Origin: an uncultured Gemmatimonadales bacterium
GTDB taxonomy: Bacteria > Gemmatimonadota > Gemmatimonadetes > Longimicrobiales > RSA9
Direction of reading: 5' to 3'
Length of the DNA stretch: 64,000 nucleotides
NCBI GenBank assembly: GCA_963783305.1
Contig: CAWAMW010000016.1
Coordinates: 416,001 to 480,000 of the forward strand
In this document: positions 44,801-50,800 of the stretch, in pieces
Position numbering within the stretch: the stretch's first letter is position 1
How the letters are laid out: each line of letters begins with the position of its first letter
Program-made: the position numbers

Positions 44801-47800
44801 CGGTACTCCGCCGTCCACCCCTCCGCATCGACCGTGGTCGCAACCTCCCAGACGGGGTCCCACGAGTTGTCGTCCGACTCGATGACCTTCACCTCGTCGC
44901 GCCGCACGCCCGCCGGGTTCACATCGAATCCGAACGCCGTCCGGTGATCGTGATAGCTGTCGAGCATGACCCCGAACCAGTCGCTGTCGCCCAGAGACAT
45001 GTCCCGTCGGCCCAGTCGCCCCGTCACCTCGCCCGTGTCCCAGAGCCGCGCCCCCACGTACAGCGCCTGGTCATCGTACAGGATCCGGACCTCCGTCCGC
45101 TGCGCGGAGGGGGCGCCCTCGTCCGGGTCGATCTGGGTGAAGCGGTCCACCACGGGCGCCGCCGCCCACGCGGCCTCGTCCAGACGCCCATCGATGTCAA
45201 GGTTCCCCGTGTACCGGACGGCGGTGGCTACGGGCCGTGCGTCGTGCTCCGCGCTCTCGGACGCGACCTGGGCGGTGAGGGGAGCACTGAGCGTCCCCAG
45301 GGCCAGGAGGACTCCGAGACCGACATGGGGATGGCTGCGGGGGGCAGGGCGGAACAGATGCTTCGGACGAACGCTGCTTCGCATGGAGAACCGGTGATCG
45401 GGTGCGGGGCTGGCGGCGCTGCGACCGCTCTGAAGGCCGCCCGAATGTAGCCGGCGTGCCGGAGGTGGCCAAGCGACCCTGGCGGCGGGGAAGGGGGGGT
45501 GTAGCTTGGAAGGGAGCGGCCTCTCCGCCCGCTCACGTGCGAAAAGAGCCCGGTGACCGAGGAGGCGAGATGGGAACGAAGAACCCCTGGAGCTGGGTGC
45601 CCGCTGGTGTTCTGGCGGCCCTCCTCCTGACGCTGGCCGTGGCCTGGTCTTTCCACGATCGGAGCGCCAGCGCCACGCAATGCGCGGTGCTGTACGCGGC
45701 CGCGGAGACCGCCGTGGACTCCGCCCTCGTGGACGCCGTCGTGATCCCTGGCGCCTGGAAGGGGCCCGGCCTGACCTGCGGCGAGCTGATGCGACGGTAG
45801 CCGCGGAGCCGGCGTACGGTCCCTCCCCCTTTCCCGCGCCCGCTCGCGTGCCCATCATGCGGCCGACGATTCACCGCCGTACCCAGGAGCACGTCGTCCA
45901 TGATCCATGACGCCGCCGAGGGCGACCCGGCCGCCGCCGTTCCAGCAGCTCACTCCGGCGACGCGGGCGTTCAGCCGCCGCCGGAGCTCAACCCGCGCCG
46001 GGAGCCGGTCCTGGACTTCATCGAGAAACCCCTCGAGTCCATGACGGCCGGGGACTACGACGTCATCGGGTTCCTCTCCGGGCTGGAAGTGCACCAGCAG
46101 ATCGACACCGCCTCCAAGCTGTTCTGCCGCTGTCCGGCCGGCCGGACCGCCACGTCCGTGGACGCCCGGGCGCTGCGCCACATGCGCCCGACCCTGAGCG
46201 AGCTCGGCGAGTACGACCGTACGGCGCTCATGGAGTTCAAGACGCGCAAGGAGGTGGTGTACCTGCTCGACCGGAGCACCGTCTGCACGTACGAGCTCGA
46301 CGACACGCCCCCTTTCGAGATCGACCCATCCGCCGTGGCCATCGCGCTGGAACTCGCCGCCCTCTGCGACCTGAACCTCGTGGGCGAGCTCCACGTCATG
46401 CGGAAGCAGTACCTGGACGGCTCCATCCCCACCGGGTTCCAGCGTACGGCCATGGTGGGGCTGACGGGCGCGATCCCGTTGCGGGAGCCGGAGCTCGGTG
46501 TCCACCGCGAGCTCCGGATCCGGCAGCTGTCGCTGGAGGAGGACTCGTGCCGGGAGGTCTCCGACGTGGGCCACCGCATTACCTACCGCACCGACCGGCT
46601 CGGAATGCCCCTCACGGAGGTGGTCACCGAGCCGGACCTGCTCACACCGTGGGAGCTCGAGGCCGGCGGTCGATTGGTGGCCGAGCTGGCACGCGCCACG
46701 GGCAAGATCCGGCGCGGGCCCGGCGCCGCGCGGCAGGACGTGAACGTCTCCGTGGCCGGCGGCCGGCGCGTGGAGATCAAGGGCGTGCCCCGCCACCGCG
46801 GGCTCACGCTCCTGGTCCACACCGAAGCCTTCCGCCAGCTGGAGCTGCTGCGCATCCGCGCCGAGCTCGGGCATCGGGGCGTCCGCCACGACGCTCTGGC
46901 CGATCCCGCCGACGGTCTTCCGTGGGAAACCTCCGGCCTGGTGGTGGACGCCGGCTCCACGATTCGCGGCACGAGCTATCGGCCCATTCTGGATGCGCTG
47001 GCCCGCGACGAGACCGTGGTTGCGGTGCGGCTCCCGGGTTTCGCCGGCATGCTGGCCCACCGCACGCAGCCGGGCCTCACTTTCGCACACGAGCTGGCTG
47101 AGCGGGTGCGCGTCATCGCGTGCCCCGTCGTGCGGCCGTTCCTCACCCATTCCGATGAGAGCGACTCCCTCTCCGGCGCCGACTGGGGCGGCCTCCGCGC
47201 CGCGCTCGGTGCGAGCACCGATGACGCCATCGTCCTCGCCTGGGCGCCCCGACCGGACGCCGCCACCGCAGCGCGCGAGATCCTGATCCGCGCTCGGGAG
47301 GCGCTGGCCGGCGTCCCCGCGGAGACCCGGCAGGCATGGCCCGACGGCCGCACCGGATTCGAGCGCCTCCTGCCGGGGCCCGACCGCATGTACCCGGACA
47401 CCGACACGCCGCCGCAGCCCGTACCGGACGCGCTCGTGGCCGAGGTCCTCGCCGCCCTCCCCGAGCGGCCCTGGGACCGGGAGGAGCGCTACGGCACTCT
47501 CGGACTCGATCACGCCACCGCCCGCCACCTCGCCCGGTCGCCGTGGGCCGATCCCTTCGATGCCGTGGGACCTGCCGCCGGCGAGCCCGCCCGACGCCTC
47601 GCGCACGCGCTCTCCAAGCGCGCGCCGTATCACGCGCGCCGCCTCGGCGTGGTGCTGGACCGGGGACCGGACTCCCTCCACGTCCTCGGGCTCGGCGCCC
47701 CCCGGATCGCCCCGCTGGTGCGCGCCCTGGAGGCCGGGGAGATCCTGCCGGGCGCCCTCGAGCCCGCTCTGGACGACCTGGCCCTGCACCCCCGCCGGGG

Positions 47801-50800
47801 GACCGACAACGTGCTGGACGCCTACTGCACCCGGCCTGGAGACGACCGGCGCCTCGAGCAGCTGGCGGCCGCGGCAGCGGACGGAGCGGCCGCGATGACT
47901 GGCCGCTCCACCGAGGCGCGGCTGCGCTGGGCCATGGGCGAGGTGATGCGGAGTCTCTGGGGCCGCGTGGACGCCGCGCGGGCCCGGCAGCTTCTGGAAC
48001 GGGCGCTGGAGCAGCGCGAAACGGAGGTGCCCGCGTGAGTGCCCCGGCGAAGGAGTCGGATCGCGGCTATCGCGGGCCCGCGCTGGAAGTCATGCGGTCG
48101 CACGGCGTCGGAGTGTGGTGCGAGGTGCGGGCGGAGACCACGCGCGGCGCCTTCGAGGGACTCATCCTGCCCCGCTCGGAGACCAGTGACGAGCTCCACG
48201 TCGTCCTGAAGCTGGGCACCGGCTACAACATAGGGATCCGCTGCGACACCATCACCGGTTTGGAGAAGATCGGCTATCGGGAGGGGCACTACGGCATCCC
48301 CGAGAAGGCTTTCCCGACGAATCCCGGCTATCCGAACGTCAAGCTCCTCGGTACAGGCGGCACCATCGCCTCCCGGCTGGATTACCGCACCGGAGCGGTG
48401 ATCCCGGCGTTCAGCCCGGGCGAGCTCTACGGCTCCGTGCCCGAGCTCGCCGACCTGTGCAACCTGGAGACGGAGAAGGTGTTCGGCGTCTTCAGCGAGA
48501 ACATGGGCCCCGAGCAGTACCTGGTCCTCGCCGAGAAGGTGGGGGAGGCCATCCGGGAAGGATACGATGGGATCGTGATCGGCCACGGCACGGACACCAT
48601 GCACCACACCGCCGCCGCCCTCAGCTTCATGGTGCAGCGGCCGCCGGTACCGGTGGTCCTGGTGGGGAGCCAGCGCTCCTCGGATCGGCCGTCCTCCGAT
48701 GCCGCCCGCAACCTCATCGCCGCCACCCGCGCCGCCGGCCACGGCACCATCGCCGAGGTCATGGTCTGCATGTTCGGCCCCACGTCCGACCTCTACAACC
48801 TCCTCCATCGCGGCACCCGCGTCCGGAAGATGCACAGCTCCGTGCGCAGCACCTTCCGCACCCTCGGGGACATCCCGCTCGCGCGCGTGCACGAGGGGGA
48901 GGTCGTGCCGATCAAAGACGACTGGCGACCCCGACGCGACGACCGCAATGTCGAGATCCACGCCGTCTTCGATCCCCGGGTCACCCTCGCCTACTACTAC
49001 CCGGGGATGCAGCCCGACGTCATCGACTCGCTCGTCGATGCAGGCTATCACGGCATCGTCATTGCCGGCACCGGCCTCGGTCACGTGAACCGCGCCATCT
49101 ATCCCGCACTCGAGCGCGCCCGCGACGCCGGCGTGCAGGTGTACATGACGCTCCAGACGCTCTGGGGCTTCGTCCAGATGCACGTCTACGAGACCGGCCG
49201 CGAGATCCTCGAGCTCGGTGTCGTCCCCCTCGCCAATATGCTCCCCGAGGTCGCCTACATAAAGCTCGGGTGGGCGCTCGGCATGCACCCGAACGACCCC
49301 GTGGCCGCCCGCTCCCTGATGACCACCCCCATCGCCGGCGAGATCACCGAGCGCGAGCCCCACGACGGCTACCTCGTTCTGCAGGGCGGCGTCCCCGAGG
49401 TGGAGGAATTCCTCAAGAAGGTGTGGCGGTAAGCGGGAGCGAGGCGACGTCAAAAAACTCCGATCATCCGGGTCGGTAGCCCTCGAGACGAACAGCAGGA
49501 TCGAAGGAACGAAGAAACGAAGGAACGAAGAAACGAAGACAGCGAAAAAGGCTGGGCTGATCCGGCGACGTTGGGACTCCGGGAACTTCGTTCCTTTGCC
49601 TCTGGAAATCCGGCTGTTGATTGCCGGCGATCGCGCCGGGGTCCCTCATCGGCGACGCACTCCGCCACGAGCTGCTCGATGGTGGCGCAGTCGGTCTGTA
49701 CGGTGCCGCAGGCGGACTGGTACATCCACTCGGTGTCGCGAGGGGGACGAGGGGTCGACCGTCCCCTTCCTTGACACCGCCCCTCCCGGCCGGGACTTTG
49801 CGGCGTCACGCGTACCGACAGCCAGAGCGATCCGGGCCCCGGCCCACACCCGAAGGATGATTGTGGCGAAGTTCCCTCCCGTACACGAGCAGATGGATGC
49901 GATCCGGCACGGCGCGCTGGAGATCGTGCCGGAGGACGAGCTGGTCCGGAAGCTGGAGCGAAGTCGGGATACCGGGACCCCGCTCGTCGTGAAGCAGGGC
50001 TTCGACCCGACGCGGCCGGACCTGCACATCGGACACGCCGTGAGCATCCGAAAGCTGCGGACCTTCCAGGAGCTGGGCCACAGCGTCGTCTTCGTGGTGG
50101 GGGACTATACCGCCCGCGTCGGCGACCCCAGCGGCCGGAGCGAGACGCGTCCGGCGCTGTCGCCGGAGGAGATCGAGGCCAACGCCCGTACCTACGCCAC
50201 ACAGGTCGGGAGCATCCTGGATGTGGACCGGGTCCGGGTCGAGTTCAACTCGAAGTGGCTGGCGCCGCTCAACCTGGCCGATATCCTGGAGCTGACCGGC
50301 TCCTACACCGTCGCCCGGATGCTCGAGCGCGACGATTTCGAGAAGCGCTACGGCGGAGGGCAGCCGATCTCCATCATGGAGTTCATGTACCCCCTCATGC
50401 AGGCCTACGACTCCGTGGCCCTCGGCGCCGACGTGGAGCTGGGCGGGAGCGACCAGAAGTTCAACCTGCTCATCGCCCGCACCATTCAGGAGCGCTACAG
50501 GCAGGAGCCGCAGGTGTGCCTGATCATGCCGCTGCTGCGGGGCACCGACGGCGAGCAGAAGATGTCGAAGTCCTACGACAACTACATCGGCCTCGCCGAG
50601 CCCCCCGAGGAGATCTACGGGAAGACCATGTCCATCCCCGACGACCTGCTGGAGGAGTGGTACACGCTGGCCAGCGGCCTCGAGGCCGATGCGTTGCAAG
50701 AGGCGCTCGCGAGCGCCGGGCCCGACCCGTACGAAGCGAAGCGGCGGCTGGCCGGACTGGTCACGCGGACCTATCACGGCGCCGAAGGCGAGGCGGCGGG

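What a model noticed while it worked through the whole genome (the two positions that open the first line are those of the whole stretch)
45900..49432. Archaeal-type GatDE amidotransferase in a bacterium that also has GatCAB, GlnRS and AsnRS
Two overlapping genes encode full-length GatE (g03120, 712 aa) and GatD (g03121, 465 aa), the Glu-tRNA(Gln) amidotransferase held to be an archaeal signature, next to tyrS, in a genome that also carries gatCAB, a GlnRS-YqeY fusion, AsnRS and two GluRS. Boldest reading: GatDE is a working, horizontally spread bacterial enzyme (common in uncultured FCB-group and other phyla) that gives these bacteria a third route to Gln-tRNA(Gln) on a bacterial-type U1-A72 tRNA, perhaps used where GlnRS or GatCAB fail. 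New would be that GatDE is not archaea-specific and recognises bacterial tRNA(Gln).
Evidence so far: swissprot.tsv: g03121 49% id over 439 aa to Thermococcus GatD (E 4e-128), g03120 37% over 586 aa to Methanopyrus GatE (E 5e-90); NCBIfam names both subunits; genes overlap by 4 nt. Other routes present: gatC/A/B g03322-g03324, GlnRS g00526, AsnRS g01962, GluRS g01225 and g01620. relatives.tsv: GatD_N (PF18195) in >=3002 of 189,784 bacterial species genomes against 7219 of 10,118 archaeal; 5 of 6 congeners. Six-frame search: 15 of 73 family RSA9 genomes, all 7 of the genus. tblastn of GatD finds 65-87% identical genes in MAGs labelled Gemmatimonadota, Krumholzibacteriota, Eisenbacteria, Aminicenantes, Zixibacteria, Cloacimonadota, Planctomycetota, Bacteroidales, on contigs up to 8 Mb, so not [...]
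(Added by a program. Inside this text positions count along the whole contig: contig position 416,001 is position 1 of the stretch shown here. "Call 12" and the like, gene names such as g00115 and contig names such as C1 are that model's own, and its searches are not shown. The text may have been shortened before it was handed on; [...] marks where a part breaks off. The agent that wrote the report below was given it as the finding of a first reader that could run no searches.)

Follow-up and report, generated by a model that had tools for sequence, protein, structure and literature searches.

The report
Bacterial GatDE tRNA amidotransferase operon
A soil bacterium carries an intact, well-conserved copy of GatDE, the two-protein enzyme that makes glutamine on its tRNA and that reviews call archaea-only, yet the cell already has two other ways to do that job, so what the enzyme is for is the open question.

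Summary
gatE (45900-48038) and gatD (48035-49432) overlap by 4 nt, pass the GatE and GatD equivalog models, and keep every catalytic residue. A confident fold of GatE matches archaeal GatE best. The genome is bacterial and also holds gatCAB, a GlnRS-YqeY fusion, AsnRS and two GluRS. All its tRNA-Gln genes are U1-A72.

This scan has met bacterial GatDE before (47 notes, at least 39 genomes), and public records already name these genes GatD/GatE. Reviews up to 2022 still call GatDE archaea-only.

New here:
- The bacterial genes belong to a separate "type II" GatD clade.
- Its basal members sit in 13 of 61 sampled genomes of one archaeal phylum, labelled Thermoplasmatota.
- In 47 bacterial carriers GatDE was never clearly the only route: GlnRS in 41 (a fragment in one more), AsnRS in 46, GatB in only 22.
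- gatD is under purifying selection (dN/dS 0.12-0.21).
- tyrS linkage is not conserved.

Most likely it is a working Glu-tRNA(Gln) amidotransferase of archaeal origin that amidates Glu-tRNA(Gln) made by a GluRS2-like GluRS. Activity and substrate are not shown, and a changed role is not excluded.

The parts
45900..48038 (+). gatE, 712 aa, the kinase and tRNA-binding subunit. Residues 1-36 fold with low confidence, and the similarity to archaeal GatE starts at residue 52, so the true start may lie downstream (for example M48 at 46041).
   Evidence: TIGR00134 382.3 bits, cut-off 319.55; 2d6f_C and 1zq1_C, E about 1e-84; AF2 pLDDT 91.2; residues 1-36 under 50; Foldseek best matches 1zq1_C and 2d6f.
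46053..47432 (+). GatE cradle (catalytic) domain, residues 52-511, with the Mg-binding residues H65, E213 and E240.
   Evidence: PF02934, residues 61-511; alignment to M. thermautotrophicus GatE H15/E157/E184, the residues named in PMC2330236. These are invariant columns in 94 GatE sequences and wherever covered in 85 rows.
46992..47252 (+). AspRS-like (GAD) insertion inside the cradle domain, residues 365-451.
   Evidence: PF02938, E 0.075, below threshold. (aligned without large gaps to both archaeal GatE structures). (folded at pLDDT above 90; weak AspRS matches).
46701..46745 (+). Loop at residues 268-282 (GKIRRGPGAARQDVN). It corresponds to the positively charged GatE loop that PMC2811023 places beside tRNA base pair 1-72. 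It carries the type II signature (VR-R/T-G-x-G-A-A-R in place of VKRG-L/I-G-T-I-R).
47673..48026 (+). GatE helical and YqeY-like tail, residues about 592-709.
   Evidence: PF02637, residues 664-703, E 0.058, below threshold. (TIGR00134 covers residues 52-705, model positions 3-620 of 622). (helices, pLDDT mostly above 90).
48035..49432 (+). gatD, 465 aa, GTG start, the glutaminase/asparaginase-type subunit. Holds the GatD_N domain (residues 35-75), the asparaginase N domain (101-291) and C domain (315-428), and catalytic T107, T110, T186, D187 and K265.
   Evidence: Catalytic residues are invariant in 153 of 153 GatD rows. dN/dS is 0.12-0.21 against 14 family genomes.

Best explanation
gatE-gatD encode a working heterodimeric, tRNA-dependent amidotransferase of the GatDE family. 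GatE would bind Glu-tRNA(Gln), phosphorylate the glutamate side chain and amidate it. The ammonia would come from GatD, which frees it from Gln or Asn.

The genes belong to a distinct 'type II' branch. Its basal members are found in one archaeal phylum (MAGs labelled Thermoplasmatota). It entered bacteria by gene transfer and then spread across phyla. In this lineage it is old and largely vertically kept.

In this cell it is surplus for translation, because GlnRS and GatCAB are both present. It most likely amidates Glu-tRNA(Gln) made by the GluRS2-like GluRS whose gene lies beside tRNA-Gln(CUG). GatCAB may mainly serve tRNA-dependent asparagine synthesis, since no asnA or asnB was found.

Shown: intact genes, conserved catalytic residues, fold, selection, distribution and the tree. 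Inferred: activity, substrate, acceptance of U1-A72, and the division of labour.
For: Family and fold:
- Both equivalog models are passed.
- Best solved relatives are P. abyssi and M. thermautotrophicus GatD and GatE.
- The GatE model has pLDDT 91.2 and is closest to 1zq1_C and 2d6f (TM 0.81-0.83 on the target).

Catalytic residues:
- GatE H65/E213/E240 align with the Mg ligands whose mutation kills the archaeal enzyme.
- The GatD Thr nucleophile and Thr-Asp-Lys residues are invariant in 92 bacterial, 16 archaeal type II and 45 canonical rows.

Selection and residence:
- gatD dN/dS is 0.12-0.21. The 3' two-thirds of gatE gives 0.29-0.43 in the 12 comparisons of over 150 codons, and 0.71 in one 107-codon fragment (14 family genomes compared).
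- The pair is present in 7 of 7 congeners and 15 of 73 family genomes.
- Local GC is 0.70-0.77 against a genome value of 0.69.

Source of substrate:
- One GluRS (C7:125756-127171), 103 nt upstream of tRNA-Gln(CUG), matches T. maritima GluRS2 best (388 bits). That is the GluRS of the glutamine transamidosome entry 3AL0.
- The other GluRS matches GluRS1 and the T. thermophilus enzyme best.

tRNA:
- tRNA-Gln is U1-A72, while tRNA-Glu is G1-C72 with a longer D-loop. This is the kind of contrast both amidotransferases use (PMC2330236).

Origin:
- The GatD tree puts 51 bacterial and 15 archaeal type II rows apart from 36 canonical rows (SH-aLRT 96-99).
- The archaeal type II rows are basal, and 49 of 51 bacterial rows form one clade (96).

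GatCAB role:
- No asnA, no asnB above cut-off, one AspRS, and an AsnRS.
Against: - There are no activity or expression data. No RNA run is listed for this stretch.
- The archaeal enzyme is reported to recognise A1-U72 (PMC2330236, PMC9499178). The host has U1-A72 only.
- The enzyme is redundant here. In 47 sampled bacterial carriers, GlnRS was present in 41 (a fragment in one more) and AsnRS in 46. No carrier clearly depends on GatDE. A needed Gln-tRNA role is therefore nowhere demonstrated.
- 25 of the 47 lack GatB. Most of these have a single GluRS, so a source of Glu-tRNA(Gln) is not evident in them.
- The GluRS2-like assignment rests on best hits only. The Arg358 determinant could not be placed with confidence.
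- dS values are near saturation (0.6-1.2), so the ratios are rough.
- The tree is rooted at its midpoint, and the archaea come from one phylum only.
Confidence: 0.6

Rival explanations
1. Type II GatDE has a changed job. It is an amidotransferase that persists only beside GlnRS and AsnRS. It could be a repair or back-up enzyme for mischarged Glu-tRNA(Gln) under particular conditions, or it could act on another aminoacyl-tRNA or substrate. It would not be a route that translation needs.
For: - Type II is a separate clade with a long stem (branches 0.30 and 0.24; SH-aLRT 99 and 100).
- In bacteria it sits with GlnRS in 41 of 47 genomes and with AsnRS in 46 of 47. It is the only amidotransferase in 25 of 47.
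- In the archaeal phylum, type II GatD and bacterial-type GlnRS coincide: 10 genomes have both, 3 have type II only, 3 have GlnRS only and 45 have neither (Fisher p 8e-7, not corrected for kinship).
- 5 of the 13 archaeal carriers also keep a canonical GatD.
- The GatE loop beside base pair 1-72 carries a clade-specific change.
Against: - All catalytic residues of both subunits and the whole domain layout are those of canonical GatDE.
- No conserved extra neighbour gene or tRNA points to another substrate in 80 loci.
- The GlnRS link may reflect shared ancestry. In the window's own family the difference is weak: 14 of 15 against 40 of 58, p 0.10.
- The sample is biased towards GatD genes at least 65% identical to this one.
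Confidence: 0.2
2. GatDE here amidates Asp-tRNA(Asn), giving tRNA-dependent asparagine synthesis. This idea was raised in earlier notes of this scan.
For: - This genome has no asnA and no asnB above cut-off.
- 9 of the 25 carriers without GatB also lack an AsnB match.
- Bacterial tRNA-Asn shares U1-A72 with tRNA-Gln.
Against: - This genome has GatCAB, which is the known enzyme for that job.
- 35 of 50 carriers have AsnB-family genes, including 16 of the 25 without GatB.
- Archaeal GatDE rejects Asp-tRNA(Asn), and its insertion domain is modelled to clash with AspRS (PMC2330236). That insertion is kept here.
Confidence: 0.1
3. The pair is a neutral passenger of gene transfer with no current function.
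For: It is redundant with GlnRS and GatCAB. Its spread in the family is patchy, 15 of 73 genomes.
Against: - gatD dN/dS is 0.12-0.21.
- The frames are intact and the catalytic residues invariant in 92 bacterial rows.
- The pair is kept in 7 of 7 congeners.
- The coupled 4-nt overlap is kept.
Confidence: 0.05

Closest known systems
Archaeal GatDE (Methanothermobacter thermautotrophicus, PDB 2D6F; Pyrococcus abyssi, PDB 1ZQ1)
   Same: The same two subunits and domain layout: GatD_N plus an asparaginase fold, and a GatE cradle with AspRS-like insertion, helical and YqeY-like tail domains. The same catalytic residues. These are the best sequence and fold matches.
   Different: - The host is a bacterium with GlnRS, AsnRS and GatCAB.
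- The host tRNA-Gln is U1-A72, not A1-U72.
- It lies in a separate clade, only 30-47% identical in GatD to the canonical genes sampled.
- It has the signature GAAR in place of GTIR in the loop beside base pair 1-72.
- The genes are co-directional and overlapping, whereas the three archaeal-labelled relatives have them divergent.
Bacterial GatCAB (for example Staphylococcus aureus 3IP4, Thermotoga maritima 3AL0)
   Same: The same reaction. GatE and GatB are paralogues (TM 0.7-0.8 on the target). GatCAB is known to read U1-A72 and the D-loop (PMC2811023).
   Different: The glutaminase is unrelated (an amidase, GatA, with GatC). GatB has a 3-10 turn and a Lys-rich tail motif that GatE lacks. GatCAB also takes Asp-tRNA(Asn). 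This genome has its own gatCAB elsewhere on the same contig.
Bacteria with GlnRS, AsnRS and GatCAB together (Deinococcus radiodurans, Thermus thermophilus, Bdellovibrio bacteriovorus)
   Same: A full set of direct synthetases plus an amidotransferase. GlnRS carries a YqeY-like C-terminus as in Deinococcus (PMC1865053 and PMC4206432, search-listing abstracts only). No asparagine synthetase was found here.
   Different: Those organisms have no GatDE. Here a second, archaeal-type amidotransferase is added.
Two-GluRS systems (Thermotoga maritima GluRS1/GluRS2, Helicobacter pylori GluRS1/GluRS2)
   Same: There are two GluRS paralogues. One matches T. maritima GluRS2 best and lies beside a tRNA-Gln gene. 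The other matches GluRS1 and the T. thermophilus enzyme best.
   Different: Specificity was not tested here. The second GluRS is common in the family with or without GatDE: 11 of 15 genomes against 36 of 58.

Membership tests
GatDE (Glu-tRNA(Gln) amidotransferase, subunits D and E) | GatE passes a curated GatE equivalog model over its full length | tested here: met
   TIGR00134 scores 382.3 bits (cut-off 319.55), residues 52-705 on model positions 3-620 of 622. NF003107 scores 439.5 bits, just under its cut-off of 456.
GatDE (Glu-tRNA(Gln) amidotransferase, subunits D and E) | GatD passes a curated GatD equivalog model and has the GatD-specific N-terminal domain | tested here: met
   TIGR02153 scores 494.4 bits (cut-off 324). 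NF003217 scores 481.4 bits (cut-off 310). PF18195 scores 42.8 bits (cut-off 25.7).
GatDE (Glu-tRNA(Gln) amidotransferase, subunits D and E) | The three Mg-binding residues of GatE (His15, Glu157, Glu184 in M. thermautotrophicus) | tested here: met
   H65, E213 and E240, mapped by hand on the printed alignment to 2d6f_C. They are invariant in 94 GatE sequences. The residues are named in PMC2330236.
GatDE (Glu-tRNA(Gln) amidotransferase, subunits D and E) | The Thr nucleophile and Thr-Lys-Asp triad of the asparaginase-type GatD | tested here: met
   T107, T110, T186, D187 and K265 are invariant in 153 of 153 rows and aligned to 1zq1_A and 2d6f_A.
GatDE (Glu-tRNA(Gln) amidotransferase, subunits D and E) | GatE-specific AspRS-like insertion domain and YqeY-like tail | tested here: met
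   Both regions align to the archaeal structures and fold with pLDDT mostly above 90. Pfam GAD (E 0.075) and GatB_Yqey (E 0.058) hit at the right places but below threshold.
GatDE (Glu-tRNA(Gln) amidotransferase, subunits D and E) | Converts Glu-tRNA(Gln) to Gln-tRNA(Gln), and not Asp-tRNA(Asn) | not testable with these tools
   This needs an enzyme assay.
GatDE as described for archaea (functional setting) | The host tRNA-Gln has the A1-U72 pair that archaeal GatDE recognises | tested here: not met
   All three tRNA-Gln genes of the genome are U1-A72. Archaeal carriers of the same clade have A1-U72.
GatDE as described for archaea (functional setting) | It is the sole route to Gln-tRNA(Gln), in a host without GlnRS | tested here: not met
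   GlnRS and GatCAB are present here. GlnRS is present in 41 of 47 sampled bacterial carriers, with a fragment in one more.
Type I L-asparaginase (stand-alone) | An asparaginase fold without the GatD_N domain and without a GatE partner | tested here: not met
   GatD_N is present. gatE is fused in an operon by a 4-nt overlap. TIGR02153 scores above TIGR00519 (494 against 368 bits).
GatB (subunit of GatCAB) | Passes the gatB equivalog model | tested here: not met
   GatE reaches only 96-116 bits against cut-offs of 315-338. The true gatB lies at C16:672823-674238.

The most novel reading that the evidence does not exclude
Type II GatDE is a functionally distinct subfamily. It arose in a GlnRS-bearing archaeal lineage and spread widely into bacteria. 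It is not a route to Gln-tRNA(Gln) that translation needs. It is an amidotransferase that is kept only alongside GlnRS and AsnRS, either as a condition-specific back-up or repair enzyme for Glu-tRNA(Gln), or with a new aminoacyl-tRNA substrate. It works on both A1-U72 and U1-A72 tRNAs.
Probability: 0.25. Interest if true: 0.8.

Novelty: new variant of a known kind. Interest (0 to 1): 0.55.

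Why it matters
Reviews as late as 2022 treat GatDE as an archaeal signature protein that co-evolved with the archaeal A1-U72 tRNA-Gln. 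They use this to explain why archaea lack GlnRS (PMC9499178, PMC8762117; passages read).

A large bacterial branch of GatDE that lives with U1-A72 tRNA-Gln, GlnRS and AsnRS contradicts both halves of that picture. So do its archaeal relatives that carry a bacterial-type GlnRS.

It also offers a direct test. Does a natural GatDE accept both kinds of first base pair? What is a 'surplus' amidotransferase for?

For this particular window the gene pair is one ordinary member of that group. The value lies in the group, not in the locus.

Tried and rejected
- **tyrS linkage.** tyrS follows gatD only in this genome. It is absent from the 1.5-kb downstream flank in 14 of 14 family loci.
- **Conserved neighbours.** In 80 loci of relatives only gatE-gatD itself recurs. 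The apparent recurrent clusters were shadow ORFs or synteny within one lineage. No tRNA-Gln lies nearby.
- **A match that looked like synteny.** The region downstream of gatD in G008 and G009 matches the gene upstream of this genome's GluRS. This is a shared beta-propeller repeat family, not synteny.
- **A second GluRS travelling with GatDE.** No: two GluRS in 11 of 15 carriers against 36 of 58 non-carriers in the family. Most carriers elsewhere have one.
- **GatDE standing in for a missing GlnRS or GatCAB in the family.** No: 14 of 15 carriers have each. The GlnRS-less genera have no GatDE.
- **GatDE as the only route anywhere in the sample.** Of three candidates, G074 has a GlnRS fragment. 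G096 and G108 also lack any GluRS match and so look incomplete.
- **AsnB absence as the driver.** Not general.
- **Type II being a GatDE adapted to U1-A72 in archaea that took up bacterial GlnRS.** Rejected, because every tRNA-Gln recovered from those archaeal genomes is A1-U72.
- **Telling discriminating from non-discriminating GluRS by the Arg358 position.** The register is ambiguous by one residue.
- **Higher conservation of type II GatD.** Not used as evidence, because the 80 loci are the best 80 of at least 594.
- **Expression.** No RNA holder is listed.
- **RNA and signals.** No Rfam match at 40000-56000. No promoter-like site and one chance-level terminator-like site.
- **Organism names for GatE representatives.** The listing of cluster members gave one name for ten proteins.
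- **Literature search.** It was badly framed (any 2 of 6 terms) and says nothing about GatDE.
- **Complex prediction of GatD with GatE.** Not run, because it is a textbook pair.

Full report
**1. What is in the window**

The + strand holds an ORF at 45900-48038 (712 aa). A second frame ends at 49432, and its GatD-like part starts with GTG at 48035 (465 aa). The stop of the first and the start of the second share GTGA, a 4-nt overlap.

The first protein passes the GatE equivalog TIGR00134 (382.3 bits, cut-off 319.55). It falls just short of NF003107 (439.5 against 456). The second passes both GatD equivalogs (494.4 and 481.4 bits; cut-offs 324 and 310). It carries Pfam GatD_N, Asparaginase and Asparaginase_C.

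Against solved structures the best relatives are the GatE and GatD chains of Pyrococcus abyssi (1ZQ1) and Methanothermobacter thermautotrophicus (2D6F). E-values are about 1e-84 for GatE and 1e-113 to 1e-116 for GatD. The alignment to 2d6f_C runs from residue 52 to 706.

**2. Is it intact?**

A review names His15, Glu157 and Glu184 of the M. thermautotrophicus E subunit as the Mg ligands whose loss kills the enzyme. [quoted passage not shown]

- On the printed alignment the GatE residues fall on H65, E213 and E240. These are invariant columns in an alignment of 94 GatE sequences.
- The GatD residues T107, T110, T186, D187 and K265 are invariant in all 153 GatD rows I assembled: 92 bacterial, 16 archaeal type II and 45 canonical.
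- An AlphaFold2 model of GatE, built on the 94-sequence alignment, has mean pLDDT 91.2. Only residues 1-36 fall under 50.
- Foldseek puts 1zq1_C and 2d6f first (TM 0.81-0.83 normalised to the target), then the GatB chains.
- The AspRS-like insertion and the YqeY-like tail are present and confidently folded. Pfam finds both only below threshold: GAD E 0.075, GatB_Yqey E 0.058.

**3. The host**

The genome has 4.35 Mb in 17 contigs, 69% GC, and is estimated 96% complete.

The neighbours of gatED are bacterial:
- a DUF5916/CBM9 protein upstream on the other strand;
- a bacterial-type TyrRS downstream;
- a TonB-dependent receptor;
- a peptidoglycan-recycling cluster further up.

The same 803-kb contig carries gatC-gatA-gatB. 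Elsewhere lie:
- a GlnRS whose 909-aa frame also matches the GatB C-terminus;
- an AsnRS;
- one bacterial AspRS;
- two full GluRS.

No asnA was found, and no asnB above cut-off (best 51 bits). GatCAB may therefore be kept for tRNA-dependent asparagine synthesis, as described for some bacteria (PMC8762117, passage). This is inference.

All three tRNA-Gln genes are U1-A72 with A73. tRNA-Asn is U1-A72. tRNA-Glu is G1-C72 with a longer D-loop.

One GluRS lies 103 nt upstream of tRNA-Gln(CUG). It matches T. maritima GluRS2 best (388 bits), which is the GluRS of the glutamine transamidosome entry 3AL0. The other GluRS matches T. maritima GluRS1 (393 bits) and the T. thermophilus enzyme (348 bits) best. 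I could not place the Arg358 specificity determinant with confidence.

**4. Selection and residence**

GatD passes its cut-off in 15 of 73 genomes of the family: 7 of 7 in the genus, and members of five other genera. These tallies include four genomes flagged as unpublished (G051, G054, G056, G057). None of them is a carrier.

Against 14 family genomes, Nei-Gojobori dN/dS is 0.12-0.21 for gatD. For the part of gatE that the loci cover (its 3' two-thirds), it is 0.29-0.43 in the 12 comparisons of over 150 codons. One 107-codon fragment gave 0.71. dS is 0.6-1.2, so the ratios are rough.

Local GC (0.70-0.77) is at or above the genome mean. tyrS does not follow gatD in any of the 14 family loci.

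**5. Does GatDE replace anything?**

Within the family it does not.
- GlnRS is present in 14 of 15 carriers and 40 of 58 others.
- GatB is present in 14 of 15 carriers and 45 of 58 others.
- Two GluRS are present in 11 of 15 carriers and 36 of 58 others.
- The genera without GlnRS have no GatDE.

Beyond the family, a scan of species genomes found at least 594 stretches encoding relatives. It kept the best 80, which are 65-87% identical in GatD. They carry labels of many phyla:
- Gemmatimonadota, Myxococcota and Acidobacteriota;
- Krumholzibacteriota and Eisenbacteria;
- Planctomycetota and Aminicenantes;
- Bacteroidales, Ignavibacteria and Cloacimonadota;
- Zixibacteria, WOR-3 and Caldisericota.

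Some of these lie on chromosomes of 3.6 to 8.1 Mb. Three loci are labelled archaeal.

I chose 50 of the 80 for spread of labels and long contigs: 47 bacterial and 3 archaeal. Completeness is not given for them. Among the 47 bacterial genomes:
- GatB 22;
- GlnRS 41, plus a fragment in one more;
- AsnRS 46;
- an AsnB-family gene 35.

25 of the 47 lack GatB. Of those, 22 have both GlnRS and AsnRS. The three without a full GlnRS are G074 (which has a fragment) and G096 and G108. The last two also lack any GluRS match and so look incomplete.

In this sample GatDE is therefore never clearly the only route to Gln-tRNA or Asn-tRNA. It is often the only amidotransferase. The sample is biased towards close relatives of this GatD.

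**6. Neighbourhood**

Over the 80 loci only gatE followed by gatD recurs. The two are co-directional and mostly overlapping. No tRNA-Gln, glnA, gltX or tyrS is a general neighbour. In the three archaeal-labelled loci gatE is divergent from gatD, and in a WOR-3 locus the order is reversed.

**7. Origin**

One of the archaeal-labelled loci gave a handle to its phylum. GatD is found in 57 of 61 sampled genomes there. After fetching the remaining genes, two kinds are clear. Canonical GatD is 32-46% identical to this one. 'Type II' is 51-66% identical and occurs in 13 of the 61 genomes. Five of those 13 also keep a canonical copy.

I built a tree of 105 of my 153 GatD rows. The rows left out were:
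- further bacterial and family loci of groups already represented;
- one duplicate of L112;
- two short rows.

The tree separates 51 bacterial plus 15 archaeal type II rows from 36 canonical rows (SH-aLRT 96 and 99). The archaeal type II rows are basal and paraphyletic. 49 of the 51 bacterial rows form one clade (96). The window's gene sits in a clade of six with its family (97).

The method was a quick IQ-TREE search with LG+G4. The root is at the midpoint, and all the archaea come from one phylum. The direction archaea to bacteria is therefore the simplest reading, not a proven one.

**8. GlnRS in the archaeal carriers**

A bacterial-type GlnRS (685-745 bits) occurs in 13 of the 61 archaeal genomes.
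- 10 genomes have both type II GatD and GlnRS.
- 3 have type II only.
- 3 have GlnRS only, and these three have no GatD match at all.
- 45 have neither.

Fisher p is 8e-7, uncorrected for kinship. In several of these genomes the glnS gene is flanked by tRNA-Gln genes. Every tRNA-Gln recovered from these genomes is A1-U72.

So members of one GatD clade live with A1-U72 tRNAs in archaea and U1-A72 tRNAs in bacteria. This removed my idea that type II arose as an adaptation to U1-A72.

**9. A clade signature**

PMC2811023 (passages read) places a conserved, positively charged GatE loop beside base pair 1-72. Bacterial GatB has a 3-10 turn at that place.

- In both solved archaeal GatE chains, in 12 canonical rows and in a cluster with a Heimdallarchaeota-named member, the loop reads VKRG-(L/I)-G-T-I-R-Q-D.
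- In 70 bacterial rows it reads VR-(R/T)-G-x-G-A-A-R-(Q/E)-D.
- In three archaeal type II rows it reads G-S-V-R.

Among 150 GatE cluster representatives, 'TI' (57) dominates the distant ones and 'AA' (23) the near ones. Whether this change bears on reading the first base pair is untested.

**10. Literature and earlier notes**

I found no paper on bacterial GatDE. The searches were:
- 'GatDE' with bacteria and horizontal;
- six phrases such as 'bacterial GatDE';
- 'GatDE' with metagenom*.

The search was badly framed and does not count. [quoted passage not shown] Papers outside the library were not searched.

Public records already name close relatives 'GatD [Gemmatimonadota bacterium]'. This scan holds 47 earlier notes on bacterial GatDE in at least 39 genomes, and notes on bacterial-type GlnRS in archaea. 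My own tests agree with their main points. They do not support the asparagine idea as a general explanation.

**11. Verdict**

The finding is real, and the gene pair is a full member of the GatDE family by every sequence and fold criterion tested. [quoted passage not shown]

The most likely role is ordinary Glu-tRNA(Gln) amidation in parallel with GatCAB (confidence 0.6). A changed role for the whole type II clade remains open at about 0.2 to 0.25.

Noticed in passing
Genomes G121-G182 (loci L177-L182, L213, L226, L228): A bacterial-type GlnRS (685-745 bits on TIGR00440) occurs in 13 of 61 sampled genomes of an archaeal phylum labelled Thermoplasmatota. It is often flanked by A1-U72 tRNA-Gln (and tRNA-Glu) genes. 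Three of these genomes show no GatD at all. The reviews read here say archaea lack GlnRS.
   Followed up: partly
G000 contig C2:112817-115285 (outside the window): An array of 19 tRNA genes within 2.5 kb. It includes a tRNA-Gln(CUG) identical to the copy at C7:127274-127347, which lies 103 nt downstream of the GluRS2-like gltX.
   Followed up: no
Genomes G074, G088, G094, G097-G100, G119: In Aminicenantes-like and some other carriers the only GluRS match covers model positions 142-465 only, in frames of 430-480 aa. It lies directly beside glnS. This suggests a GluRS with a divergent N-terminal part. gltX-glnS adjacency is common across the sampled genomes.
   Followed up: no
Loci L207, L209, L210 (G159, G167, G139): A third, very long-branched group of GatD-like genes (32-36% identical to this one; TIGR02153 scores of 322-346 bits straddle the 324-bit cut-off). 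It sits beside the type II clade in the tree.
   Followed up: no
Loci L202, L203, L206, L212 (G181, G152, G169, G130): In four of the five archaeal genomes that hold both GatD types, the canonical-type copies form one clade with long branches (0.74-1.27). They may be the copies that are drifting or changing role.
   Followed up: no
Window 34855-42674: A cell-wall sugar recycling cluster: NamZ (exo-MurNAc-ase), a GH3 glycosidase fused to a beta-lactamase-fold domain (1159-aa frame), a glucosamine-6-P isomerase fused to a PIG-L deacetylase domain, and a sodium:solute symporter.
   Followed up: no
Window 49450-50202 (-) and 49596-49900 (+): The tyrS ORF begins about 100 codons before its synthetase domain. 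The true start is therefore probably near 49880, which leaves some 450 nt after gatD with no Rfam match and no annotated function.
   Followed up: partly
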